DNA of 64,000 bases from a virus (taxonomy: Duplodnaviria > Caudoviricetes): positions 107,176-171,175 of IMG/VR virus record IMGVR_UViG_2974666281_000001; one strand, given 5' to 3'. Below are positions 3,089 through 55,408 of this stretch, piece after piece. Below the pieces are notes generated by a model. It was not told the origin of the DNA, did not search any database, and was given only the letters and a program-made list of their open reading frames with translations. The position numbers were made by a program, and so were the translations under genes. How positions within the stretch are numbered: the stretch's first letter is position 1; the number at the start of each line of letters is the position of its first letter.

Positions 3089-3638
3089 ATAGTTTGAAAA
3101 TATCAAATGGCTCTGGTTCATACTTACTTTTGAAGTTTTCAAGCACATTTCTAAAAGCTAAATTAAATGTAGCAATACCGAATTTACGAGCTATATAAAC
3201 AGCTACTCTAGTTCCACCTTTAATCTTTCCGTGTTGTTCTGGCGCCCAATAGAACACTGCATCTACTGGATTATCACACTTCTCGCCTAGCACTTGATTA
3301 GCATCCCTTGCTAGCAATATTTGAACCGTTTTACTCCGGTCTTCATAATCAGGTACAAATTCACGCGCATGTACTACAGATTTAATCTTCCCTTCATTAG
3401 GTAAATCCTGCCACAATATCACCCCTTGCATTTTATTCGTCAATCCGTTGAATCCGTTATGTGGAATAATAATTTGTTTATTACTTCCATATGAAGCTAG
3501 CCACGCAGTATCTGCCCCAGGGGCGCCGCCTGAGATACCGAAACAGCCGGAGGAACTTAATCCATAACCGGCTTTCGACATAAGCCTCAGGATGTGCTGA
3601 GGCGTTTCTCGTGACCCAATTAGAGCCACTCGTTTCAT
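3087..3638 (-). CDS. SLOG/DprA(Smf)-like Rossmann-fold protein
   Basis: VALIGSR, SGGAPGAD and GGT motifs typical of DprA/SLOG proteins. Confidence 0.75.
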   Translation of the reverse strand: MKRVALIGSRETPQHILRLMSKAGYGLSSSGCFGISGGAPGADTAWLASYGSNKQIIIPHNGFNGLTNKMQGVILWQDLPNEGKIKSVVHAREFVPDYEDRSKTVQILLARDANQVLGEKCDNPVDAVFYWAPEQHGKIKGGTRVAVYIARKFGIATFNLAFRNVLENFKSKYEPEPFDIFKL

Positions 3639-4645
3639 TAACTCACCACTTCATGCCATTTTTCACGGATAGTGGCCATCACTACTTGCTGAAGTTCTTT
3701 CTTAACAGCGGTCGGGTTTTCAGCATCAGTTAATACGATACCTTCACGTTCTGCTTCAACGAAAATATCTTGCATCGTTAGACCCATAACTTTACCGAAG
3801 TCTTTAGCACCGACTTCACCGATATGAGAAATAACGTTAGATACACGGTTCCAAGTACTATAATCAGCGAAGGTAGATAATACTACTTTATCTGAAGCAC
3901 TCAGTTCGACTTTGGCTTTAATAGGCTTATCAGATTTAGCCTTTTCACTGAACTTAGAGTTCTTACACTTAATAGCCACACGATTACCATTCGCTAGGAA
4001 CTCAGGATAACAAGGTTTCAGAACATAACCTTCTGCAATATTCTTTTCACCACTAGGTGGATGACCAAAACAATGTGTATTAGCATGGTCTAAATCGGTC
4101 ATGCGAATCAGCTCGTTATAGTAATTGACTTCTGTGTCAAAATCATTAACGATTTTAGACAGTTCTTCAAAAGAACCACGATCTAGAAGTGGGGCTGTTT
4201 TAAAACCAAAAGTACAGCACATATTAGTCATCATAAAATCGTCAACAAATGAGCCTGTAGTATCGTTTTCAGTTTTAACTAAGATGTCGAATACGTAGAA
4301 GTCTTTCTCGCCGTAATCCATACCTTTCTGAATTCCGCCACCAGCAAATTCGCCAAATATCTGATAAGACGAAGCCACACCAGTAATTGCAGACTGTAGA
4401 GCCTTAATAGACTTATCGTATTTCTTCAGAATAATTTCATGTCCAAAGAAACTTTCACCAGGAAGAATAGGACCTGTCCGCTTACACGGAGTGACTGCGT
4501 CACGACTAATAATTAGAGAGAAGTTTGTACCGTGAATCTTTTCACGTGCTACCCATACACCAGAATCTTTACCAGAGAAGCGAATCTTCTCGATGAATTT
4601 ACCGTTGTAGTGGTTCTCTAGGGAGGAGTACTTCTGGAATGTCAT
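3638..4645 (-). CDS. rnlB: RNA ligase 2
   Basis: [18 protein letters not shown] (motif I), [25 protein letters not shown]. Confidence 0.97.
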
Positions 4646-45085: not shown

Positions 45086-48000
45086 ATGGCCGATATTTTA
45101 AAACCTGCTTTCCGTGCCACGTCCGGCCTTGATGCAGGTGGCGAAAAAGTTATCAACGTTTCTAAAGCTGATTTCAATACAAAAACTGATGGTGTAAACG
45201 TTGAATTCTTTATTGAAGAAAACACCATCCAAGAATATGATAGTACTCGTGGATATCGTAAGAATTTTGCAGTGATGTTTGATGGACGTATCTGGACTGC
45301 AAAAGAAGATATCGCAGCTCCAGCTGGTACGTTCCAAGAACCTCGTTGGACAGCATTACGTACAGATGCTAAATGGAAGTATGTAACTTCTGGTGCTAAT
45401 AACGCACTTAAATCAGGTGATTACATCTCTGTATCAACCGAAACAAGTGATGTTGGATTTGTTTTACCTAATACTCCACAAGATGGAGACACAATAGTAA
45501 TTAAAGATGTTGGCGGTAAGGTTGGGTATAACTCATTAAAGGTTAAAATTTCTAACCAATCTATTATCCGTTTTAATGTTCCTGTTTCTGAAGTAATTAT
45601 TACTAAAGCACGTGCTGAAAGTATTTTCATTTTTAGTAATAGACAATGGCAATTCTATTCTTATGAAGAAGATGAACATGCTATCAGAGTAACTTCTGCA
45701 GCTGAACATAGAGCAACGGCTGGTGAACATATTTTCCGTACCCATGCAAACCCAGGTCTAGTTAAAGTAATGCTGCCTAAGTTTGCTAATAATGGTGACA
45801 TCATTTATTTTACCGATCTTGACGGGTTAGGTCCTATTCATCATTTACAGCTTCGTACTTTTGACGATAGTACAAGTATTGGTAAAGCTGGGGTTCATCA
45901 GGCTGAATACCGTACTTCAGGTGATGGTTTAGTTGTATTTGATGCTGCTGAAAAAGTTTGGCGCACTTGGGATGGCGATCTCAGGACTCGTCTTCGTATT
46001 ATTCGTGATGATGTTAAACTTATGCCTAACGAAAGTGTTATGGTGTTTGGTACGAATAATGCTATAGAAAAAACTATTAATGTTGAATTGCCATTATCAG
46101 TTGCATTAGGCGATAAAGTTCGTATCGCTATGAACTATATGCGTAAAGGACAGAAAGTTGTTATTAAAGCGGCTGAAGGCGATACAATAGCTACTTCTAA
46201 ATCTTTACTTCAATTCCCTAAACGTTCAGAATATCCACCTGAAGTAGAATGGGTACAAGTTACTTCATTAACCTTTGACGGTACTCAGGATTATGTTCCT
46301 ATTATTGAACTTTCTTATATTGAAGATGGAACTAAACATTATTGGGTAGTTTCAACAAACGATCCAACAGTTGAACGTGTCGATTCTAAAACAGATGAAA
46401 CTCGTAAACGTTTAGGCGTAATTGCACTGGCGAGCCAGACTCAAGCTAACGTTGATAAAGAAAACAATCCAGAAAAAGAACTTGCTATTACTCCTGAAAC
46501 TTTAGCAAATCGTACTTCTACCGAATCAAGACGTGGTATTTCTCGTTTAGCTACTACGGCAGAAGTTGTACAGGATTCTAACTTTGCTTTCTTAGATGAT
46601 GTCATTGTTACTCCTAAAAAACTGAATCAACGTGTTGCTACTGAAACTTCTCGTGGTTTAGCCGAAATAGCTACTCAAACTGAAACCAACCAAGGAACAG
46701 ATGATACAACTATTATAACGCCAAAGAAATTAGAAGCACGTCGTGCAACTGAAAATATGGCTGGTATCGCTAAACTTGTTTCTACAGTTGGAACTACTGC
46801 AGGCGTAGATCGTGCAACTAAAGGAACCAATGTCTATGATTATGACAATAACACTGATATTGTAACTCCTAAGTCCCTGGCACAACAGAAGGCGACTTAT
46901 ACAGAACAGGGTTCATTGTTCATTGCCACAGCTAATGAAGTTATTTCAGGCGTCTCTCAGGAAGGATTCCAGACCGCAGTTACTCCTGTTGAATTGCATA
47001 AGAAAACTGCTACTGAAACTCGTATTGGATTTAGTGAACTTGCTACGCAAGCAGAAACTGATGCTGGTACTGATGATTTTAGAATTGTTACACCTAAGAA
47101 ATTGAATGACCGTAAGGCTCGTGAAGATTTGACTGGTTTGGCAAGAATTGCAACACAAGTTGAATTTGATGCAGGTACTTTAGATAATGTTATTTCAACT
47201 CCGTTGAAAGTTAAAACACATTTCAATGATACTGCCCGTACTTCTGTTGTAACCGATAGTGGTTTAGTAGAACAAGGAACTCTCTGGAACCATTATACCC
47301 TTGATATCCAAGAAGCATCTGAAACCCAACGTGGCACAGCTCGCCTGGCAACTCAAGGTGAAGTTGATACTGGAACAGATGATAAGACTGTTGTTACACC
47401 TTTGAAACTGCATAAGAAGAAAGCAACCGAATCTACTGAAGGTATCGTTAAAATCGCTACCCAAGTTGAAACAGTAGCTGGAACTTCTTCTATTACAGCT
47501 GTTTCTCCTAAAAATCTGAAACACGTTATCCAAGTAGAAAAAACTTGGGAAGCATCGCCAATTCTACGTGGCTTAGTTAAGATTTCAGAAAATGCTATCA
47601 CTTGGGAAGGTAATAATGTAGATGGTTCAACTAAACCTCTTGAAAATTACGAGAAGTCTGGCTATGCTATTTCTCCTTATGAATTAAACAAGACTTTAGC
47701 GAATTATCTCCCTAAAATGGGTCAAGCCGAAGATTCACGTAATTTAGATGGACTAGATTCATCTCAGTTCATTCGTCGTGATATCGACCAAACAGTTAAT
47801 GGTAAATTGACTCTTACTAAAGAAACGACAGTTTCGGCTCCTATTGTTTCAACTTCTACTGCGAAGTTTGATTCTGTAACGAGCGTTAAGAGTGTTACTA
47901 TTGGCGATGGAACGGGTGATGCTGTTTTCAATATGCTAGGTAAAGACAATCCTTGGAATGTTTCTTCACTGACTTCTAAAGAAACCTTGGAATTCAAATC

Positions 48001-48856
48001 AGGAGATACTAACGCATTAGTTATCAATAAAAATGGTAACTTGACTTCAGCAGGACAAATTGCCGCTCCTTCAGTAGATGTTTCAAAATCTTATAAGCTG
48101 AACGGTGTAAACGTTTTAACTTCAGAAACAATTGGTGTTACCCCAGTCGTTTCAGTTGGTTCAACTACTCAAAAATTAGTTATCAAAACAGTTGATGCTG
48201 GAAAAATCGATATCTATGATAAAGATTCTCCATCAACTCCTTATACTGTTCTGACTACTAAAAACGCAGTTGATATTGTTGGCAATAACTTTGTTAAGAA
48301 AATTGGTGATAACATGAGCGGTCGCTTAACAGTGAACGCTGCAATGTCAATCATCATGGACCAAGACAAAGCCATGCTTCCATTATCTTCTGAAACAATC
48401 GGTACTTGGTCTACTGAAATCACTAAGAAAACCCATTACGATAAATTACCTGGTTATGTTGTCCCAGTATTTGTTGAGGGTGAAGAAGGCGGTTCTACCG
48501 GTATAGTTGAGCGTTATGAAGAAGTTAAATCAATAGGAACTATGTCTCAGTTCGGTGTATCTGCAGCATATACTTATCGCATTTGGACTCCTCGTCCACA
48601 GGTTCCACAGGATAACCATAATGCGGTTTCAATGTATATGCAGATGTGGGATTCTGCTCGTAACACATGGGGTCAATGGTCTCGTATGTTTACTTCAGAG
48701 GCTCCTCCTACTGCGGCTGATATCGGTGCTGTTTCTACCGCTGGTTCTGCATTCGATAACTTGAAAATCCATAAATGGCTTCAGATCGGTAATGTACGTA
48801 TTGAACCAGACGAAACAACTCGTACTGTTAAATTCACTTGGGTTGATAATCCATAA
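45086..48856 (+). CDS. 34: long tail fibre proximal subunit gp34
   Basis: FRATSGLDAGGEKVINV; repeated ATQxE...VTPKKL motifs. Confidence 0.97.
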   Translation: MADILKPAFRATSGLDAGGEKVINVSKADFNTKTDGVNVEFFIEENTIQEYDSTRGYRKNFAVMFDGRIWTAKEDIAAPAGTFQEPRWTALRTDAKWKYVTSGANNALKSGDYISVSTETSDVGFVLPNTPQDGDTIVIKDVGGKVGYNSLKVKISNQSIIRFNVPVSEVIITKARAESIFIFSNRQWQFYSYEEDEHAIRVTSAAEHRATAGEHIFRTHANPGLVKVMLPKFANNGDIIYFTDLDGLGPIHHLQLRTFDDSTSIGKAGVHQAEYRTSGDGLVVFDAAEKVWRTWDGDLRTRLRIIRDDVKLMPNESVMVFGTNNAIEKTINVELPLSVALGDKVRIAMNYMRKGQKVVIKAAEGDTIATSKSLLQFPKRSEYPPEVEWVQVTSLTFDGTQDYVPIIELSYIEDGTKHYWVVSTNDPTVERVDSKTDETRKRLGVIALASQTQANVDKENNPEKELAITPETLANRTSTESRRGISRLATTAEVVQDSNFAFLDDVIVTPKKLNQRVATETSRGLAEIATQTETNQGTDDTTIITPKKLEARRATENMAGIAKLVSTVGTTAGVDRATKGTNVYDYDNNTDIVTPKSLAQQKATYTEQGSLFIATANEVISGVSQEGFQTAVTPVELHKKTATETRIGFSELATQAETDAGTDDFRIVTPKKLNDRKAREDLTGLARIATQVEFDAGTLDNVISTPLKVKTHFNDTARTSVVTDSGLVEQGTLWNHYTLDIQEASETQRGTARLATQGEVDTGTDDKTVVTPLKLHKKKATESTEGIVKIATQVETVAGTSSITAVSPKNLKHVIQVEKTWEASPILRGLVKISENAITWEGNNVDGSTKPLENYEKSGYAISPYELNKTLANYLPKMGQAEDSRNLDGLDSSQFIRRDIDQTVNGKLTLTKETTVSAPIVSTSTAKFDSVTSVKSVTIGDGTGDAVFNMLGKDNPWNVSSLTSKETLEFKSGDTNALVINKNGNLTSAGQIAAPSVDVSKSYKLNGVNVLTSETIGVTPVVSVGSTTQKLVIKTVDAGKIDIYDKDSPSTPYTVLTTKNAVDIVGNNFVKKIGDNMSGRLTVNAAMSIIMDQDKAMLPLSSETIGTWSTEITKKTHYDKLPGYVVPVFVEGEEGGSTGIVERYEEVKSIGTMSQFGVSAAYTYRIWTPRPQVPQDNHNAVSMYMQMWDSARNTWGQWSRMFTSEAPPTAADIGAVSTAGSAFDNLKIHKWLQIGNVRIEPDETTRTVKFTWVDNP

Positions 48857-48864
48857 GAGGTATT

Positions 48865-50016
48865 ATGTCTAATATTATGGCAGGTTTTGGCGAAGGATTT
48901 GTCGAAACTCAAATTATGTCAGAAAATAATGCCGTAAGATATAAACTCTCAGTAGCTGCCGGGCTGAAAAGCTCGGCTCCTTCAAATGAATATATTTTAC
49001 TGCAGGATAAGCCATTAGGAGAACAAGGAAATTCTCCTGGGATGAATGTTCGCGAAATAAATCTTTCTACTAATACAGTTATCTCCCGCAAAATATTTGA
49101 TTTCAAAAATGGTGAACTTGTAGGAGCTAATAAAAGCTTTGTCGATTATATGACTTCACTTGTGGCTAAAGATAATACAATTATTGTACTAAGCACTGGG
49201 GATAGACTTTATTCTAGCGAAACTGTTGATAATTGGTTCAAATCTGTTGCATCTCCTAGTTGGCCAGGCACATGGATGTGCTCTAAATATCCATGTTCTT
49301 ATGTTGCGTTTTATTCAGTTCATAAGAAAAAAATCATACAAGAACACACAACTTATTCTGACGGGGTCCTTCGTGATGAAGATGTAAGAGCTCAATTAGA
49401 AGTAGTGTATGACAAGTTTGATGATATTGGAGCCACTGGATTTGTTAAAAGAGCCATAGAAGAAGCTGATGAAGCTTCTAGTGCTACCGAGTATGAATTT
49501 AAACGATATCCTTCTGGAGCGCCTATCATTGCTTCAATGAAAGACTATTCTATTACTCCTGGTTCAAAGCTTAAGGCTTCTTTTGAGCTATTTGCGGATA
49601 AAGCGCTTCTAGATTCAGGACAATCCACTAGATTAAATTTTAGATGGTTTAAAGGAAGTACGATTCTGACGTCTCAGGCTAACGAGGTGCCCATCGGACA
49701 ATCAGATAGATGGATAAAGTACGAACGATATATAGACGTTCCTGCTACTGCTGACGGCTTCACGGTAATTGCTGCTCGATATCCTCGTCAAGATACTAGT
49801 GTAGGACTAGGCGCTGTAAGAAATCTAATCCTTCTTGAAGTTTCTAGACAAGATGAAGCAATTAGTAGATCAGCTGAATTTGGTGTAAATGGTATAAGAA
49901 TGAATAAAGCTATAGATGGACAGAATAGTGAACTTCTTATTCTTCCAGACACTAAAGATGATCCATCCGGTGAAATTAGATCTGCTGAATTTAGAGAATA
50001 CGCGAAAACTGTATAA
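48865..50016 (+). CDS. 35: long tail fibre hinge gp35
   Basis: MAGFGEGFVETQIMSENNAVRYK; FGVNGIRMN. Confidence 0.93.
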   Translation: MSNIMAGFGEGFVETQIMSENNAVRYKLSVAAGLKSSAPSNEYILLQDKPLGEQGNSPGMNVREINLSTNTVISRKIFDFKNGELVGANKSFVDYMTSLVAKDNTIIVLSTGDRLYSSETVDNWFKSVASPSWPGTWMCSKYPCSYVAFYSVHKKKIIQEHTTYSDGVLRDEDVRAQLEVVYDKFDDIGATGFVKRAIEEADEASSATEYEFKRYPSGAPIIASMKDYSITPGSKLKASFELFADKALLDSGQSTRLNFRWFKGSTILTSQANEVPIGQSDRWIKYERYIDVPATADGFTVIAARYPRQDTSVGLGAVRNLILLEVSRQDEAISRSAEFGVNGIRMNKAIDGQNSELLILPDTKDDPSGEIRSAEFREYAKTV

Positions 50017-50077: not shown

Positions 50078-50737
50078 ATGGCCGATTTAAAAGCTAGTTC
50101 TACGGTCGGAGGAGCAGTCATTTGGCACCAAGGTAATTTTCCTTTGTTCCCAGTTGGTGACTCTCTTCTGTACAAAACATTTAAGGTTTATACAGAAAAA
50201 GATAAGCCACAAGCAATAGATAATGATTTTGTTTCTAAAGCTCAAGGCGGCGAATATCTTAAAGCAGTGAATTTTGTTGAAGGCTTTGGATTCACAGATA
50301 ATAATGGATACAAGATTAAATTTGGCAAGCCAGGTTCTACCGAGCCTACTGTAAATTATTCAGCGTCTATTAAGATTGAATCACCATTTGCTTTCGAAAC
50401 TAGTGAAAATAAACCATTTATTATTTTTGACCCAAGTCAGGATTTAAGCAATCCACGTTTGACAGTTATGGGTAAAGTTATTGCTGGAGAGGTTTGGGAT
50501 TCTAATACAAGAGTCTTTAGTCCGGCTAACCCACCTACTCCTACAGATGTAAGTCTTGGTAATGTAACTAATGACAAACAGGTCAAGATAAATACTACTG
50601 ACTTACAGACTATGAAAGGTGAGCTTCGAGCCCCTAATATGTCTAGTGAAAATCCGGCAATTGAGCCGAACCAATTAACTCGATACGACCAAACGGTTCT
50701 TCGAGATGCAGACCAAGATTTCGGCTATTACAGCTAA
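50078..50737 (+). CDS. 36: long tail fibre distal connector gp36
   Basis: MADLKASSTVGGAVIWHQGNFPL...QDFGYY. Confidence 0.95.
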   Translation: MADLKASSTVGGAVIWHQGNFPLFPVGDSLLYKTFKVYTEKDKPQAIDNDFVSKAQGGEYLKAVNFVEGFGFTDNNGYKIKFGKPGSTEPTVNYSASIKIESPFAFETSENKPFIIFDPSQDLSNPRLTVMGKVIAGEVWDSNTRVFSPANPPTPTDVSLGNVTNDKQVKINTTDLQTMKGELRAPNMSSENPAIEPNQLTRYDQTVLRDADQDFGYYS

Positions 50738-50745
50738 GAGGACAT

Positions 50746-53490
50746 ATGGCAACTTTAAAACCAATACAATTTAAAAGAAGTAAAACAGCTGGTTCAAGAC
50801 CTTTGCCTGAACAAGTATTAGAAGGTGAATTAGCCCTGAACCTCGAAGATCGTATGATTTTCACTAAAGATGATGAAGGGAATATCATTGACCTTGGTTT
50901 TGCAAAAGGTGGTCGTGTAGACGGCGATATTGTTCAGGTTGGTAATTACACTCAAACCGGGGATTACACTACTTCCGGGGACATCAATGCTAAAACTATA
51001 ACAGCTTCAGCGGGTGTAGTTTCTAATGGCGATTTAAAAGCTTCTACTGGGGTTATTAGGACTAGAGGTGGTAATAGTGGGAACGCTCATCTTTGGTTTG
51101 AAGGTGAAGAAGTAGGCCTAACTAATAATTATGAAAGAGGCGTCATGTACGCTTTACCACAAACCGCTACTGAAGGGACTATTAACCTTAGGGTTATGAA
51201 TGGTTTTGATAATAGCAAAGCCCAATCTTTATTTAGCTTCCGTGGTAACGGTGATTTTTCAGCTCCAAGAGATTTAGTATCTCAACGTGGGCGTTTTTCT
51301 ATCGAAGCTGTGGCCCCTACAATTAACACAACTCGTATTTACACAAGAGATAAACCTTGGCGGTCAAATAGCGATGAATCTTATGGGTGGTTAGATTTAG
51401 TTAATTATGTTCCTGGAGAAAACGGGGCACTAGCATTAAACTATGTCTATAAAGGTCGAGCCATGTCTGGCGGAACCATTTGGCATCAATTGGTTGATGA
51501 AAGAACCGGTCCTGAATGGGCTCTTTATACTGGTAGCGGTCCTGAAAATAAAGCTTTTGCAGTAGGGTCATCCGCAGGTAAAGGTCTCGGTAACTTCACA
51601 GGCAGTTTACATGTAGGTAATCCAGGATATTCTGCTATTGGCAATAACTCTATTACTATTGGCGAAACTAATACTGGTTTAAGACAAACTTCAGCAGGTA
51701 ATTTAGATTTCTTATCGGCTAATAATATGGCTTTCAGATTTTCTGCAGGTGAAGCCATAAACCGTTCTTATAATCGATTACACGTCCAGCATTCTGATGC
51801 TAATGGTAATGCTGTTAATCCACCAGCTAATAATGCTCAACTACAAGTAAATACTTCAGGTGATGAAAATAACGCAGGCGGAAACGGATTAACCTTAATA
51901 GGTTATTATGCTGGAGCTACAGGCGAATACAATCATTATTTCCGTGGTAAAGGTTCTGCATCTTTTGATATGCAACGTGGTATAAACATTAACCAAGGTG
52001 GCCTTAATGTTTATAATGGTTTAACGAATGTAGGCCAAATTAATTTAACAGGTTCAATGAATACTACTAACGTTCCACAAGGAACTTATAAATGGGACGA
52101 TTTGAACACTGTAGCTGCTGATGCTAAATCTTATTTACGTAGATTCCGTTCAAGAAATAACTCAACGATTTGGCATGAAACAGTCGAAGGTGGAATTTGG
52201 CGTTTATCTACTGGTTCTACTGACGCTCAAGAAGAATTACAAATTAGTACTAGTGGTATGTTTAGGGTCAGAGGGGAAGTAGTTGCTCTTGGAAATGGTG
52301 GAGCCTCTGGGACTGGAAACCATTTCCGTGCCGTGTATGGGAATTACGGATTCTTTATTCGTAATGATGGTAGCAACACTTATTTTATGTTGACTAATTC
52401 AGGCGACCAATATGGTACATGGAATAGTTTCCGTCCTTTTACTATCAACAATGTGTCAGGACGTGTTTCAATGGCTAACGGCGTTGGTATTAGTGGCGGA
52501 CTGACTGTTGCTCCAGGCATTGAATCGGAATATGTTAAAACTTATACAGGTAGTATAGGTCATGGCTCTTGGGCTTCACAGAATGATAATGAAGCAATGA
52601 TTTTCCAAAGAATTACTAGTGCTTCTACTTCTGAATACTGTCCTATTCTTAAGCAAAAATATATTGGCGGAAATAGAACTTGGTCAATAGGTACTTTGAT
52701 TAACGTAGGTTCTTTCCACATCCATATGAAAGATTCTGCTGGTAATGACAGAAACTTTGCTTTTCAACCTAACGGTGATTTTAATGGTGCTAATACCATT
52801 AATGCATCAGCTATATCTGTAGGCAGTGCTAGACTTAGTTCTATCGCTACTCCGGGTGGTGGTCAATTTGCTAATGACGGTAACGTTTATATCAATAAAT
52901 CTGGTTTTGCAGGCTGGATAGATGCACTATTTGTTAAGAAAAATGGTGATACCATGTCTAGCACTTTAAACATAAACGCGAACGGCCCGGGCATAAATAT
53001 GGACTGTCCTACAGGTGGTTCTACTTATGTTATAGGTAGGAGAAACGGTGTTAACGGATTTTATGTTGGTATGGGTGGTACTGGTAACGATGCAACGTTC
53101 CATAGTTATTTGAACAACACTACTATTAACTTACGTGCTTCAGATATCCAGTTCAGCCGTACAGTTTATGGTAATGGTGATGCAAACTTCAACAACGTTT
53201 ATATTCGTTCAGATATTCGTTTAAAACGCAACTTCAAGAAAATTGAAAATGCTTTAGATAAAGTTGATAAACTTGATGGTTTAATTTACGAGAAGAAAAA
53301 TACTCGTGAATCTACTGAATATGAAACAACTGAAGCAGGTATCATTGCCCAGACTTTACGATCTGTATTACCTGAAGCCGTTTCAGAGCATGAAGGTACT
53401 CTTAATGTTTCAGCTTCTGGGACTATTGCTCTGTTAGTTAATGCTATCAAAGAACTTAAAGCTCGTGTTGAAGAACTTGAATCAAAATAA
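50746..53490 (+). CDS. 37: long tail fibre distal subunit gp37 with C-terminal intramolecular chaperone
   Basis: MATLKPIQFKRSK...EGELALNL; SDIRLK...AGIIAQ...LVNAIKEL peptidase-S74-type tail. Confidence 0.95.
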   Translation: MATLKPIQFKRSKTAGSRPLPEQVLEGELALNLEDRMIFTKDDEGNIIDLGFAKGGRVDGDIVQVGNYTQTGDYTTSGDINAKTITASAGVVSNGDLKASTGVIRTRGGNSGNAHLWFEGEEVGLTNNYERGVMYALPQTATEGTINLRVMNGFDNSKAQSLFSFRGNGDFSAPRDLVSQRGRFSIEAVAPTINTTRIYTRDKPWRSNSDESYGWLDLVNYVPGENGALALNYVYKGRAMSGGTIWHQLVDERTGPEWALYTGSGPENKAFAVGSSAGKGLGNFTGSLHVGNPGYSAIGNNSITIGETNTGLRQTSAGNLDFLSANNMAFRFSAGEAINRSYNRLHVQHSDANGNAVNPPANNAQLQVNTSGDENNAGGNGLTLIGYYAGATGEYNHYFRGKGSASFDMQRGININQGGLNVYNGLTNVGQINLTGSMNTTNVPQGTYKWDDLNTVAADAKSYLRRFRSRNNSTIWHETVEGGIWRLSTGSTDAQEELQISTSGMFRVRGEVVALGNGGASGTGNHFRAVYGNYGFFIRNDGSNTYFMLTNSGDQYGTWNSFRPFTINNVSGRVSMANGVGISGGLTVAPGIESEYVKTYTGSIGHGSWASQNDNEAMIFQRITSASTSEYCPILKQKYIGGNRTWSIGTLINVGSFHIHMKDSAGNDRNFAFQPNGDFNGANTINASAISVGSARLSSIATPGGGQFANDGNVYINKSGFAGWIDALFVKKNGDTMSSTLNINANGPGINMDCPTGGSTYVIGRRNGVNGFYVGMGGTGNDATFHSYLNNTTINLRASDIQFSRTVYGNGDANFNNVYIRSDIRLKRNFKKIENALDKVDKLDGLIYEKKNTRESTEYETTEAGIIAQTLRSVLPEAVSEHEGTLNVSASGTIALLVNAIKELKARVEELESK

Positions 53491-53521
53491 AATAGGGGCT
53501 TCGGCCCCTTAAGGATTTATT

Positions 53522-54037
53522 ATGGCAATTGTAGGTGTTCCGGGTTGGATTGGAGAATCTGCCGCAGTAGAAACAGGCCAACGATGGATGGCTTCAGCAG
53601 GAAGTGTCCTAGGGATAGGAACTCCTTTTTGGATGAGTAGTTTAGCAGGAAAATCTAGATCATTCTTTCTTACAGTAGGTCGAAATGTTTGGACTACTCC
53701 CCTCGCCGGTGATGCAACTGATGTAGGTCATGGACTTTCTAACTATGGCTCTGTAACTATAGGTAAACTTGAAAACGCTGACGGGATCTGGGGTGGAATA
53801 ACATACTTATTGGCTTCAAGGAGTAGAGTTTCTACTAGTGCTAGTATTACCGGTAAAAACTTACCTAAAAGAAACCTTATTCTTAAGATTGGTGGAACTA
53901 ATTTTCAATTTAATTATCTTAAACAAACTATTTCAGGAACAGTATGGGAAACTTGGGGTGCCGCTGATGTTAATGGGCTTTTTAACTTTTTAAATGCTAG
54001 AGTTAACCAAAGATTAGAATGTATTCCACAAAACTAG
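53522..54037 (+). CDS. 38: gp38-type fibre-tip adhesin A (171 aa)
   Basis: MAIVGVPGWIGESAAVETGQRWM...FWMSSLAGKS is the T2-type gp38 attachment domain. Confidence 0.85.
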   Translation: MAIVGVPGWIGESAAVETGQRWMASAGSVLGIGTPFWMSSLAGKSRSFFLTVGRNVWTTPLAGDATDVGHGLSNYGSVTIGKLENADGIWGGITYLLASRSRVSTSASITGKNLPKRNLILKIGGTNFQFNYLKQTISGTVWETWGAADVNGLFNFLNARVNQRLECIPQN

Positions 54038-54055
54038 TTATTAATTTATCTTTTT

Positions 54056-54118
54056 AATAAATACAATTACCCCATTTTGATGATTTATCGTCAAAATGGG
54101 TCAAAAATTCTATTTATT
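54056..54118. repeat. long imperfect inverted repeat
   Basis: AATAAATACAATT..CCCATTTTGATGA / TCGTCAAAATGGG..AATTCTATTTATT. Confidence 0.85.
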
Positions 54119-54176
54119 CGCCGCGCGCAACGATGCTCACACATCGCCGCGCGCAACGATGCTCACACATCGCCGC
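54118..54176. repeat. GC-rich 26-bp tandem repeat (two full copies plus 7 bp)
   Basis: TCGCCGCGCGCAACGATGCTCACACA x2 followed by TCGCCGC. Confidence 0.97.
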
Positions 54177-54217
54177 TAGCGGTAGAACTGCCAGCGGCCT
54201 CTAAAGAGGATAAATCA

Positions 54218-54724
54218 ATGGCAGTAGTTAACGTACCAGGCTGGATAGGTTCATCTGCAGTCGATGTTACAGGAAAAAGATGGATGACTGAGGCTAGGGT
54301 CGCCTTAAGGCTCCCTGCAGCAGGCTGGATGTCAGAAATGGCTGGTAAATCCGTCCATATAGGCTCATTCACAATTAATATGAATACAAAGGGCGCTAGA
54401 TTTATAGGATGGAAAATAGCTACTAATTCCAATCTTTACGATTATGCAAATGGTGCTTTAGGCTCTTTCTCTGGCAATAGAGAAAATTGTGTAGGAATAG
54501 GTGCTGAACCATTTACAGGCAATAACTGCCATTTAGGCATGAGTGCTCACATGGGTGCAAAACTTAGAGCTGTTTTTAGTACTGGGCACACATATGAATT
54601 CACTTATTCTAGAACCCAAGGCGGAGTCTGGGGGTATTATGTTACTGTAGGTAATAACGCTTTTAGAGATTGGGTCAAAGCTAATGCTAACAAAAATATA
54701 ACGGTAACTATATATCAAATATAA
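54218..54724 (+). CDS. 38: second gp38-type fibre-tip adhesin B (start moved to ATG 54218, 168 aa)
   Basis: MAVVNVPGWIGSSAVDVTGKRWM...WMSEMAGKS; AGAGGA RBS. Confidence 0.85.
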   Translation: MAVVNVPGWIGSSAVDVTGKRWMTEARVALRLPAAGWMSEMAGKSVHIGSFTINMNTKGARFIGWKIATNSNLYDYANGALGSFSGNRENCVGIGAEPFTGNNCHLGMSAHMGAKLRAVFSTGHTYEFTYSRTQGGVWGYYVTVGNNAFRDWVKANANKNITVTIYQI

Positions 54725-54743
54725 ATACCTCTGTTAAAAGAGG
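54720..54743 (+). promoter_or_regulatory. late promoter for t, with a hairpin able to pair the RBS
   Basis: TATAAATA, then CCTCT-GTTAAA-AGAGG. Confidence 0.75.
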
Positions 54744-54751
54744 ACACAAAA

Positions 54752-55408
54752 ATGACAACTCCAAGAACACCTATCCCAATCGTGGATATTCTATTTGGTG
54801 TTCTGGACAGACTCTTCAAAGATAATGCCACTGGACGAGTTCTCGCATCGAGAGTTCTTACAGTGGTTATTTTGTTCATTTTATGCCTGATTTGGTACAA
54901 AGGCGATACCTTCATGGAGACTTATAAGCAGTCTCGTTATGAGACGTATGCTAAAGTTCTTCAACAGGATCGCGATGTGAAATTTGATAGCTCTGCTCTA
55001 GAACAACTTCAAATAGTTCATGTATCAAGTGGTGCAGACTTCTCAGCAGTTTATAGTTTCAGGCCTAAAAACCTTAACTATTTTGTTGATTTAGTTGCAT
55101 ATGAAGGGAGATTACCTACTTCAGTTAACGAAAAAAACTTAGGTGGGTATCCAGTAGACAAGACATCAGGAGAGTATTCAACTCATTTATCAGGTGCAGC
55201 ATTTTCATCTAATAACGAGTTTGTTTTCTTACCTACAAAGAAAAAGGACACTGAACTGAAGTACATGTTCAGTTGCCCTTATTTCAATCTAGACAATGTT
55301 TATTCAGGAACTGTTTCAATGTACTGGTATCAACCACCGATATTATCAGAAACAAGATTAAACGCTATATGTCAACAGGCCGCCCGTACTTTAGGAAGAG
55401 CAAGATAA
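54752..55408 (+). CDS. t: holin T
   Basis: FGVLDRLFKDNATGRVLASR, one TM, FSCPYFNLDN, CQQAARTLGRA. Confidence 0.97.
   Translation: MTTPRTPIPIVDILFGVLDRLFKDNATGRVLASRVLTVVILFILCLIWYKGDTFMETYKQSRYETYAKVLQQDRDVKFDSSALEQLQIVHVSSGADFSAVYSFRPKNLNYFVDLVAYEGRLPTSVNEKNLGGYPVDKTSGEYSTHLSGAAFSSNNEFVFLPTKKKDTELKYMFSCPYFNLDNVYSGTVSMYWYQPPILSETRLNAICQQAARTLGRAR

What the first reader, a model, noticed from the sequence alone, without database searches (positions are those of the whole stretch)
53522..54724. Two divergent gp38-type adhesins in tandem behind one gp37: candidate dual or switchable receptor-binding system
Seen: two ORFs of 171 and 168 aa follow a single gp37. Both begin with the Trp-bearing gp38 attachment domain (MAxVxVPGWIGxSA..TGxRWM...WMSxxAGKS). 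After GKS they show no similarity I can see by eye, and both lack the long glycine-rich motif array of T2-type gp38. Established: in T2/T6/S16-type phages gp37 carries a cleaved C-terminal chaperone, and one gp38 caps the fibre tip and sets receptor specificity. Inference: two interchangeable caps could compete for the same gp37 tip, giving mixed fibres or virions, or regulated host-range switching without an invertase or DGR. The shared 5' block could also allow recombinational loss or exchange.
Basis: partly seen in the sequence, partly recalled or inferred. Interest (0 to 1): 0.82.

Follow-up and report, generated by a model that had tools for sequence, protein, structure and literature searches.

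The report
Two tip adhesins for one fibre
This T4-like phage of Serratia and Erwinia carries two different small receptor-binding cap proteins behind its only long-tail-fibre tip gene, a rare, conserved and so far unstudied layout that probably gives one virus two receptor specificities.

Summary
The window is a Winklervirus, 99.3% identical to Serratia phage LC53 over 53000-55400. Gene order is gp37, adhesin 1 (53522-54037, 171 aa), a 180-nt spacer, adhesin 2 (54218-54724, 168 aa), then holin t.

Both adhesins have a strong Gp38_N attachment domain. In the models this domain superposes on S16 gp38 at 1.0-1.3 Å. Neither has the glycine-rich T2/S16 head.

The whole genome has one S74-chaperone fibre and exactly two Gp38_N genes, so both caps must share gp37. 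The pair recurs in Winkler-, Kanagawa- and Kagamiyamavirus. Slot 1 is one orthologous clade under strong purifying selection. Slot 2 holds unrelated family members.

Either gene can be lost in nature. Adhesin 2 is frameshifted in two Erwinia aphidicola phages. Kosakonia phage 305 lacks slot 1.

The spacer is more conserved than the genes. Its predicted RNA fold hides the adhesin 2 ribosome site.

Best reading: two alternative caps compete for one fibre tip. Neither cap has been shown on virions. No paper found discusses this pair.

The parts
50746..53490 (+). gp37, distal long-tail-fibre subunit (914 aa). It is the only fibre in the genome with a Peptidase_S74 intramolecular chaperone.
   Evidence: phrog_1699 E 2.9e-248. 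Pfam Gp34_trimer, gp37_trimer and Peptidase_S74. One S74 match in the whole genome.
53209..53487 (+). C-terminal chaperone part of gp37 (residues 822-914). It is presumed to be cleaved off after the invariant ..YIR|SD.. site.
   Evidence: Peptidase_S74 at residues 822-879. I820, R821, S822 and D823 are invariant in 28 gp37 relatives. Aligns to S16 gp37 chain 6F45_A. Cleavage is inferred from the family, not tested.
53494..53509 (+). GGGGC-UUCG-GCCCC hairpin between gp37 and adhesin 1
   Evidence: Sequence; terminator-like scan.
53522..54037 (+). Adhesin 1 (slot 1), a 171-aa short gp38. The attachment domain is residues 1-45; a beta-sandwich head follows.
   Evidence: Gp38_N E 4.3e-20. phrog_1121 E 4.4e-50. 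AF2 pLDDT 86.8. N-domain on 6F45_D at rmsd 1.0 Å, VIA Z 7.3. Orthologous clade with 100/99 support. dN/dS 0.10 against PEi20.
54037..54055 (+). 5' arm of a predicted long-range RNA helix. It begins at the last base of the adhesin 1 stop codon and is complementary to the adhesin 2 Shine-Dalgarno and AUG.
   Evidence: RNAalifold keeps the pairs in 5 of 5 sequences from three genera. MFE -70.3 kcal/mol, z -7.5. Prediction only.
54056..54063 (+). AATAAATA, one mismatch from the T4 late-promoter box TATAAATA. The box is exact in PEi20, PEi26 and KLB31.
   Evidence: Sequence and alignment. Not tested.
54071..54100 (+). 13-bp hairpin, with a compensatory change at one stem position in the Kanagawavirus copies
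54118..54176 (+). GC-rich 26-nt unit in 2.3 tandem copies. It is unique in the genome.
   Evidence: TRF. Whole-genome pattern search. There is one copy fewer in Virsaitis27, Gravdalen, Vettismorki and two metagenome contigs.
54203..54222 (+). Adhesin 2 ribosome binding site (AAAGAGGA, then AUG). It is the 3' arm of the long-range helix.
   Evidence: Mean P(unpaired) is 0.09 in the read-through RNA and 0.67 in an RNA starting after the promoter-like box.
54218..54724 (+). Adhesin 2 (slot 2), a 168-aa short gp38 with an orphan head domain
   Evidence: Gp38_N E 4.3e-19. phrog_1121 E 2.5e-44. AF2 pLDDT 86.0. N-domain on 6F45_D at rmsd 1.3 Å. The nearest non-Winklervirus relative in the phage records is at most 37% identical. 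Long unplaced branch in the tree.
54720..54727 (+). Exact TATAAATA box overlapping the adhesin 2 stop, 25 nt before holin t
54752..55408 (+). Holin t, the conserved downstream flank of the slot 2 cassette
   Evidence: Phage_holin_T E 3.8e-80. 85% identical to EcS1 t.

Best explanation
The locus encodes two alternative monomeric tip adhesins for one long tail fibre.

How it probably works (inferred by analogy with phage S16). gp37 trimerises and cuts off its S74 chaperone. Its tip then accepts one gp38-type cap through the cap's N-terminal Trp-bearing attachment domain. Both caps carry that domain and there is only one such fibre. Each of the six fibres therefore probably ends in either adhesin 1 or adhesin 2, and virions probably carry a mixture with two receptor specificities.

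Slot 1 is an old, strongly conserved adhesin shared by three phage genera. This suggests a conserved receptor or a shared constraint.

Slot 2 is an exchangeable cassette. It lies between the conserved spacer and holin t and holds a different family member in each genus.

The ratio of the two caps is probably set at the RNA level. On the read-through 36-37-38 message, the adhesin 2 ribosome site is predicted to pair with the sequence that starts at the adhesin 1 stop codon. Adhesin 2 would then be made only when a ribosome terminating on adhesin 1 opens the helix, or from a shorter transcript started at the late-promoter-like box inside the spacer.

Shown here: gene content, domain identity, conservation, selection, natural losses and exchange. 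Inferred: capping of gp37 by both proteins, competition between them, mixed fibres, and the RNA gate.
For: 1. One S74 fibre and exactly two Gp38_N genes in the 171,175-bp genome.

2. Both N-domains pass Pfam at E about 1e-19 to 1e-20. Both keep W9, W22 and W37. In the models both superpose on S16 gp38 in the 6F45 tip complex: rmsd 1.0 Å over 45 columns and 1.3 Å over 48 columns, Foldseek probability 1.00, VIA Z 7.3 for adhesin 1.

3. Both fold confidently (pLDDT 86.8 and 86.0) with the same order of helices and strands.

4. The pair is kept in Winklervirus, Kanagawavirus (PEi20, PEi26, KLB31) and Kagamiyamavirus (EcS1). It is intact on at least four further contigs or records.

5. Slot 1 forms one clade (100/99 support) while the slot 2 genes fall in three separate places. 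Between the window and PEi20, slot 1 has dS 1.69, dN 0.18 and dN/dS 0.10. gp37 has 0.29.

6. Each gene works alone somewhere. Gravdalen and Vettismorki are Illumina assemblies (PMC11780129). They share a G5-to-G4 frameshift that removes the last 26 residues of adhesin 2, and they keep adhesin 1 intact (100% and 98% identical to the window's). Kosakonia phage 305 has only a slot 2-type gene.

7. Cassette exchange is visible. PEi20 and PEi26 have identical gp37 and t, but their slot 1 genes differ at dS 0.48. PEi20 and K305 slot 2 genes have dS 0.43 against 1.2-1.5 in the flanks.

8. EcS1 adhesin 2 has a head 64% identical to the Pseudotevenvirus leB type. Its N-domain shares EcS1-specific features with EcS1 adhesin 1: a two-residue deletion, FWAS and GRS. 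This is as expected if both dock on the same gp37.

9. The ends of the spacer are almost invariant across three genera. The fold has z -7.5. The ribosome site is predicted 80-91% paired in the long RNA in all five phages.

10. A short gp38 of a Jiaodavirus was detected in virions by mass spectrometry (PMC13119998, Table 3; same phages as hits H30-H32).
Against: - There is no direct evidence that either protein is on the virion.
- LC53 loses all adsorption on an ompW mutant of Serratia sp. ATCC 39006, with no escape phages (PMC10132071). On that host the second specificity contributes nothing detectable.
- The adhesin 2 N-domain is only 56% identical to that of adhesin 1. Its second half (LRLPAAGWMSEMAGKS) matches another subtype, 72% identical to P0019. 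Its fit to this gp37 tip is therefore less certain than for adhesin 1.
- The RNA helix has almost no covariation: one C-G to U-G change, because both arms are nearly invariant. It rests on conservation and thermodynamics only.
- The promoter-like box has one mismatch in this phage and lies 154 nt from the start codon, far for a T4 late promoter.
- An adhesin that is better conserved than the fibre shaft is unusual. It could mean that slot 1 has a role other than receptor choice.
Confidence: 0.6

Rival explanations
1. Only one of the two is the working fibre cap in this phage. The other is a redundant passenger, kept by linkage or on its way to loss, with no role in infection.
For: Adhesin 2 is frameshifted in two Erwinia aphidicola phages. 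One public contig shows an extra T in the T5 run of adhesin 1 at 53625 (single contig, depth 12, unverified). Kosakonia phage 305 manages with one gene. LC53 depends on OmpW alone (PMC10132071).
Against: Both genes are intact in at least six independent genomes or contigs of this genus, and in two other genera. Slot 1 shows dN/dS 0.10 at saturated dS. Both slots show 0.09-0.31 in closer pairs. Both models are well folded. The spacer that links the two genes is itself conserved.
Confidence: 0.15
2. Slot 1 is not a receptor-binding adhesin. It is instead a conserved accessory of the tip, for example a protective or assembly cap on gp37 or a protein acting off the virion. Slot 2 is the real specificity determinant.
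For: Slot 1 is 82% identical between the window and PEi20, while gp37 is 52% and holin 62% identical. Its dN/dS is 0.10. The hosts of these phages span Serratia, Erwinia, Edwardsiella, Klebsiella and E. coli. Slot 2 varies with genus.
Against: The two E. aphidicola phages with truncated adhesin 2 still form plaques with only slot 1 intact. Slot 1 heads do vary and are swapped between otherwise identical phages: PEi20 against PEi26, dS 0.48, dN 0.15. That is typical of a specificity element. Slot 1 belongs to the same family as single-copy adhesins of other T4-like phages. Kosakonia phage 305 needs no slot 1.
Confidence: 0.12
3. The two proteins act together on one fibre, as a stacked or heteromeric tip in which one binds the other, rather than as alternatives.
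For: They are adjacent, probably co-expressed, and predicted to be translationally linked.
Against: Both keep the same attachment domain, which in S16 occupies the single site on the three-fold gp37 tip (6F45). Either gene exists without the other in relatives. Slot 2 is replaced by unrelated heads while slot 1 stays, which argues against a co-evolved interface.
Confidence: 0.05
4. The duplication is an assembly or annotation artefact.
For: None. Short-read assemblies do break at the 26-nt tandem repeat in the spacer (run X1).
Against: Four GenBank genomes and two independent long contigs span the whole interval. The two genes are only 29% identical in protein, so they cannot be collapsed or duplicated by an assembler.
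Confidence: 0.01

Closest known systems
S16/T2/T6-type gp37-gp38 tip complex (PDB 6F45; Pfam Gp38_N + GP38)
   Same: gp37 has a C-terminal S74 chaperone. The cap is a separately encoded monomer with the same N-terminal attachment domain (rmsd 1.0-1.3 Å in the models). The gene order 37-38-t is the same.
   Different: There are two caps instead of one. The head is a roughly 120-residue beta-sandwich with one helix, not the polyglycine-II sandwich with glycine-rich motifs. There is no PF05268 hit, and no PDB fold match for the head (best Z 4.3).
Single-copy short gp38 adhesins (phrog_1121) of Jiaodavirus, Slopekvirus, Pseudotevenvirus and Kosakonia phage 305
   Same: Same family over the full length, same size and same position before t. 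One member was found in virions by mass spectrometry (PMC13119998).
   Different: Those phages have one such gene. Here two paralogues sit in tandem, with a conserved structured spacer between them.
Duplicated g37 in RB43-like and Aeh1-like phages (Trojet et al. 2011, PMC3157838; Klebsiella phage iPHaGe-KPN-12i)
   Same: A T4-superfamily fibre locus doubles one component. How the alternatives are used is unknown there too.
   Different: There the fibre subunit is doubled and one short gp38 follows. Here the fibre is single and the cap is doubled.
Invertible tail-fibre segments of Mu (G) and P1 (C), and the DGR of Bordetella phage BPP-1
   Same: One phage genome encodes alternative receptor-binding ends for one fibre.
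   Different: Those systems switch by DNA inversion or mutagenic retro-homing, so each virion carries one type. Here both genes are present in the same orientation, and no recombinase or reverse transcriptase is needed.
T4 late-gene translational gating (genes e, soc, I-TevI, 49). This comparison rests on my own knowledge of the T4 literature, not on a paper read here.
   Same: The ribosome site is buried in a helix on the long transcript. A late-promoter box sits inside the structure, so a shorter transcript would be open.
   Different: In T4 the gate separates early from late expression. Here both transcripts would be late, and the 5' arm starts at the stop codon of the upstream paralogue, which also allows termination-coupled opening. 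This is prediction only.
Branched fibres with two receptor-binding proteins, such as T5-like DT57C LtfA/LtfB and the multi-tailspike phages CBA120 and K1-5. This comparison rests on my own knowledge.
   Same: Two receptor specificities on one virion.
   Different: Those phages attach both proteins at once through adaptor or branch domains. Here both proteins have the same docking domain for one site.

Membership tests
Gp38_N attachment domain (PF21721) | N-terminal domain of about 40 residues scoring above the Pfam gathering cut-off | tested here: met
   71.9 and 68.7 bits against a cut-off of 25, residues 1-42 of both proteins.
Gp38_N attachment domain (PF21721) | Three-helix fold as in S16 gp38 | tested here: met
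   AF2 models against 6F45_D: rmsd 1.0 Å over 45 columns and 1.3 Å over 48 columns, probability 1.00; VIA Z 7.3 for adhesin 1.
gp37-gp38 tip complex (S16 type) | Partner gp37 with a C-terminal S74 intramolecular chaperone and a conserved cleavage site | tested here: met
   Peptidase_S74 at E 1e-13. R821, S822 and D823 are invariant in 28 relatives. Only one such fibre in the genome. Cleavage itself was not tested.
gp37-gp38 tip complex (S16 type) | One gp38 monomer bound to the processed gp37 trimer tip | not testable with these tools
No proteomics or structure was found for these phages.
T2/S16-type GP38 head (PF05268, glycine-rich motifs, polyglycine-II sandwich) | PF05268 match or glycine-rich motif array | tested here: not met
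   No PF05268 hit at E <= 0.1 for either protein. True long gp38s in L040 and L007 hit it at E 7e-49 and 3.6e-41. The PDB profile search and fold searches align only the N-terminal part to 6F45_D (residues 1-65, and 43-48 aligned positions).
Short gp38 adhesins (phrog_1121) | Full-length match, including the head domain | tested here: met
   E 4.4e-50 (residues 1-170) and 2.5e-44 (residues 1-166). A head-only profile gives E 1.9e-11 and 1.3e-12.
Short gp38 adhesins (phrog_1121) | Receptor binding by the head domain | not testable with these tools
   The name is an annotation. I found no functional test of any short gp38 head. The only support is virion presence in a Jiaodavirus (PMC13119998).
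T4 gp38-type tail-fibre assembly chaperone ('distal long tail fiber assembly catalyst', the name given in several GenBank records) | Similarity to a tail-fibre assembly or chaperone family | tested here: inconclusive
   Gp38_N is the only Pfam family at E <= 0.1. The GenBank name appears to be inherited from gene position. I did not compare directly with T4 gp38.
T4-style RNA gate with an internal late promoter | Ribosome site paired in the long transcript and open in the short one | tested here: met
   In silico only: P(unpaired) 0.09-0.20 against 0.45-0.67 in five phages.
T4-style RNA gate with an internal late promoter | A functional late promoter inside the structure | tested here: inconclusive
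   AATAAATA here and in EcS1; exact TATAAATA in PEi20, PEi26 and KLB31. No transcript data: no RNA run holds the stretch.

The most novel reading that the evidence does not exclude
A T4-like phage hedges its host range within single virions, without any DNA rearrangement. Two paralogous caps compete for one fibre tip. A conserved structured RNA spacer, through termination-coupled or promoter-dependent unmasking of the second ribosome site, sets their ratio. Slot 1 supplies a conserved 'anchor' specificity. Slot 2 is a plug-in cassette that is swapped between genera.
Probability: 0.3. Interest if true: 0.75.

Novelty: new variant of a known kind. Interest (0 to 1): 0.55.

Why it matters
gp38 caps are the main handle for understanding and re-targeting the host range of T-even-like phages. 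All structural and engineering work so far assumes one cap per fibre.

A natural system with two caps for one tip would show how a phage can carry two specificities at the cost of fewer fibres per receptor. It would also show how the ratio is controlled and where nature cuts and pastes the modules: at the N-domain/head boundary and at the conserved spacer.

The system comes with natural controls. Close relatives have a truncated slot 2 or no slot 1. One host receptor, OmpW, is already known for a relative about 99% identical in this locus.

The short gp38 head also has no solved structural relative.

Tried and rejected
I could not view the 35,517-bp Logan contig. It appears to hold gp37 (P0153), a slot 1-type gene (P0006) and a slot 2-type gene (P0010). 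This is inferred only from equal contig lengths.
- Fold searches for the head domain found nothing convincing. Foldseek against PDB had no hit at E <= 0.001 beyond the N-domain. VIA wide gave a best Z of 4.3.
- The profile search weakly matched Ig-like and InlB-B repeat proteins (P0137, P0143; E about 1e-5 to 1e-4) and intimin (E 0.076). I treat these as generic beta-sandwich similarity.
- The ESM Atlas returned only other Gp38_N clusters, at scores of 0.85.
- Rfam had no family for the spacer; the best match was YenS at 22 bits against a cut-off of 80.
- No RNA holder is listed among public runs, so nothing can be said on expression.
- A direct profile comparison of the slot 1 clade head against the adhesin 2 head was not significant (hhalign probability 4.8%). 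Homology shows only through the wider family profile.
- A second fibre as partner for adhesin 2 was rejected: there is only one S74 fibre in the genome.
- Literature searches for a described double gp38 found nothing.
- The Pet-CM3-4 adhesin paper concerns a long glycine-rich gp38, so it gives no functional evidence for the short family.
Full report
**What is there**

The window is part of a 171,175-bp virus record. Over 53000-55400 it is 99.3% identical to Serratia phage vB_SspM_LC53 and 96-97% identical to Erwinia phages Virsaitis27, Gravdalen and Vettismorki. All four are Winklervirus, Tevenvirinae.

The fibre locus reads as follows:
- gp34: 45086-48856
- gp35: 48865-50016
- gp36: 50078-50737
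- gp37: 50746-53490
- adhesin 1: 53522-54037, 171 aa
- spacer: 180 nt
- adhesin 2: 54218-54724, 168 aa
- holin t: 54752-55408

gp37 ends in a Peptidase_S74 chaperone (residues 822-879). The junction ..YIR|SD.. is invariant in 28 relatives.

Both small proteins hit Pfam Gp38_N over residues 1-42, at E 4.3e-20 and 4.3e-19. Neither hits the glycine-rich GP38 head PF05268.

**The heads are related after all**

Pairwise identity is 29% overall and about 22% after the GKS hinge. Even so, three results point to common ancestry:
- Both proteins match phrog_1121 ('tail fiber adhesin') end to end, at E 4.4e-50 and 2.5e-44.
- I built a profile from head domains only, leaving out adhesin 2 and the whole adhesin 1 clade. 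It finds the adhesin 2 head at E 1.3e-12 and the adhesin 1 head at E 1.9e-11. The best of 4000 shuffled heads scores 14 bits.
- AlphaFold2 with a 57-sequence family alignment gives pLDDT 86.8 and 86.0. Both models have the same order of elements: three short helices, a run of beta strands, one helix and a last strand.

In both models the N-domain superposes on S16 gp38 in the solved tip complex 6F45. The figures are rmsd 1.0 Å over 45 columns and 1.3 Å over 48 columns, probability 1.00, and VIA Z 7.3 for adhesin 1. The head has no convincing solved relative (best Z 4.3).

These are two divergent members of a 'short gp38' family. The same family supplies the single adhesin of Jiaodavirus, Slopekvirus, Pseudotevenvirus and others.

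**One fibre, two caps**

A whole-genome search finds one S74-bearing fibre and exactly two Gp38_N genes. There is no second fibre for the second cap to sit on.

**The layout is real, rare and conserved**

Two independent public contigs, a 23-kb silage-metagenome contig and a 118-kb contig, cross gp37 to t in one piece.

Among 898 phage records with a match to adhesin 1, there are only 12 more matching places than records. The two-place records I saw were:
- the four Winklervirus genomes
- Edwardsiella phages PEi20 and PEi26 and Klebsiella phage KLB31 (Kanagawavirus)
- Escherichia phage EcS1 (Kagamiyamavirus)
- an Ounavirinae record

Both genes are also intact on the X20-sized contig and on a 170,818-bp ENA contig.

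Other double layouts exist. An uncultured T4-like contig has gp37, a short gp38, a 202-aa ORF and a long glycine-rich gp38. The Ounavirinae record LPML1 has a long and a short gp38 side by side; in two Hafnia phage records the match spans two adjacent annotated genes and may be the same layout.

The mirror image also exists: two gp37 genes followed by one short gp38. It occurs in a Pseudotevenvirus and was noted for RB43 by Trojet et al. (PMC3157838).

**The two slots behave differently**

In a maximum-likelihood tree of 61 short gp38s, the slot 1 genes of all three genera form one clade (100/99 support). The slot 2 genes fall in three unrelated places:
- The window's adhesin 2 is a long orphan branch. 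It is at most 37% identical to anything in the phage records outside its genus.
- EcS1 slot 2 groups with the Pseudotevenvirus leB type.
- The Kanagawavirus slot 2 groups with the single adhesin of Kosakonia phage 305.

Slot 1 is 82% identical between the window and PEi20, while gp37 is 52% and holin 62% identical. This is not recent transfer. Synonymous sites are saturated (dS 1.69) while dN is 0.18, giving dN/dS 0.10. gp37 gives 0.29.

Both slots still move as cassettes. PEi20 and PEi26 have identical gp37 and t, but their slot 1 genes differ at dS 0.48. The slot 2 genes of PEi20 and phage 305 are much closer (dS 0.43) than their flanks (1.2-1.5).

EcS1 adhesin 2 is a chimera. Its head is 64% identical to the leB type. 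Its N-domain shares with EcS1 adhesin 1 a two-residue deletion and the FWAS and GRS signatures. That is what one expects if both must fit the same gp37.

For the window's adhesin 2 this argument is weaker. The second half of its N-domain belongs to another subtype, 72% identical to P0019.

**Natural knock-outs**

Gravdalen and Vettismorki were isolated on two Erwinia aphidicola strains and assembled from Illumina reads (PMC11780129). They share a G5-to-G4 deletion in adhesin 2. The reading frame then stops after ..GGVWGIMLL, which removes 26 residues including the conserved last helix and strand. They also share a 2-nt deletion further on. Their adhesin 1 is intact and 98-100% identical to the window's.

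Kosakonia phage 305 has no slot 1 and no spacer.

Each gene is thus dispensable somewhere, and each suffices somewhere. This fits two stand-alone adhesins. It does not fit an obligate pair.

**A constraint from experiment**

LC53's two adhesins are each about 99% identical to the window's. On ompW mutants of Serratia sp. ATCC 39006 it loses all adsorption, and no escape phages were seen (PMC10132071). On that host only one receptor counts. The other cap must be for other hosts, or be unproductive there. Which cap binds OmpW is unknown. That paper does not discuss the two adhesins.

**The spacer**

Its two ends, a 13-bp hairpin and a GC-rich unit are better conserved across the three genera than the genes around them. 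A 32-nt stretch is identical between the window and EcS1, although their adhesins are 57% and 32% identical.

As RNA it folds to -70.3 kcal/mol, against -38.9 ± 4.2 for shuffles (z -7.5).

The outer helix pairs 54037-54055, which begins at the last base of the adhesin 1 stop codon, with 54203-54222, which holds the adhesin 2 Shine-Dalgarno and AUG. All pairs are kept in five sequences. There is only one single-sided change (C-G to U-G), so this is conservation rather than covariation.

Just inside the 5' arm lies AATAAATA. In the Kanagawaviruses this box is an exact TATAAATA.

The predicted probability that the ribosome site is unpaired is 0.09-0.20 on the read-through RNA. It is 0.45-0.67 on an RNA that starts after that box.

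Two readings follow, and both are untested:
- A ribosome terminating on adhesin 1 opens the site (coupling).
- Adhesin 2 is translated mainly from its own late transcript, as in the T4 genes e and soc. This comparison rests on my own knowledge.

The 26-nt GC-rich unit is unique in the genome. It varies in copy number: there are 2.3 copies here and in LC53, and one copy fewer in five other sources. The Kanagawaviruses have 2.3 copies of a different 23-nt unit with the same TCGCCGCGCG start.

**Verdict**

The most likely mechanism is competition of two alternative caps for the single gp37 tip. This would give mixed fibres. Slot 1 would be a conserved specificity, slot 2 an exchangeable one, and the ratio would probably be set by the spacer RNA. 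I put this at about 0.6.

The main rivals are:
- one gene is a passenger (0.15)
- slot 1 has a conserved role other than receptor choice (0.12)
- the two form a joint tip (0.05)

The arrangement is visible in GenBank annotation as two 'tail fiber adhesin' genes. No paper in the searchable library analyses it.

It is a new variant of the gp37-gp38 system rather than a new kind of system.

Noticed in passing
window 54118-54176: The GC-rich 26-nt unit (TCGCCGCGCGCAACGATGCTCACACA) is present in 2.3 copies here and in LC53. There is one copy fewer in Virsaitis27, Gravdalen, Vettismorki and two metagenome contigs. PEi20, PEi26 and KLB31 have 2.3 copies of a different 23-nt unit with the same TCGCCGCGCG start. 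The unit occurs nowhere else in the genome. Its function is unknown.
   Followed up: partly
L009:2100-2200 and L010:1690-1790 (Gravdalen, Vettismorki; alignment A1 columns 1141 and 1220-1221): Both phages share a 1-nt deletion in a G5 run and a 2-nt TA deletion in adhesin 2. Together these truncate the protein by 26 residues. The genomes are Illumina assemblies from two different E. aphidicola hosts.
   Followed up: yes
window 53625: One public 118-kb contig (run X8, depth about 12) has an extra T in the T5 run of adhesin 1 codons 35-36. This would frameshift slot 1. It is a single contig and could be an error.
   Followed up: no
L004 and L005 (PEi20, PEi26), 3501-4016: The two Edwardsiella ictaluri phages have identical gp37 (936 codons) and identical holin. 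Their slot 1 adhesins differ at dS 0.48 and dN 0.15. PEi26 slot 1 is close to that of Klebsiella phage KLB31. This is a clean cassette replacement.
   Followed up: partly
P0171 (Serratia phage X20 gp37) against window 52783-53487: X20 carries near-identical copies of both adhesins (same 90% clusters). Its gp37 C-terminal 235 residues are only 56% identical to the window's. The same caps therefore appear to serve a rather different fibre end.
   Followed up: no
L051:2542-7519 (Klebsiella phage iPHaGe-KPN-12i, Pseudotevenvirus): Two tandem gp37-like genes (715 and 740 aa) are followed by a single short gp38. Both gp37-like proteins have precomputed Peptidase_S74 domains (P0244 and P0209). This is the mirror image of the layout studied here.
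   Followed up: partly
L040:3-5292 and L007:3195-4465: Mixed pairs occur. An uncultured T4-like contig has gp37, a short gp38 (185 aa), an unknown 202-aa ORF and a long glycine-rich gp38. The Ounavirinae record LPML1 has a long gp38 (255 aa) directly followed by a short one (160 aa); Hafnia phages Zyzzx and SarahDanielle may be similar. LPML1 is labelled a Listeria phage, which looks doubtful for an Ounavirinae genome with gp38-type adhesins.
   Followed up: partly
window 54077-54217: An in-frame TTG-started extension makes adhesin 2 look like a 215-aa ORF. Gene callers produced 200-, 205- and 175-aa versions in public records. The family-wide MA(V/I) start and the AAAGAGGA site 7 nt upstream place the true start at 54218.
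   Followed up: yes
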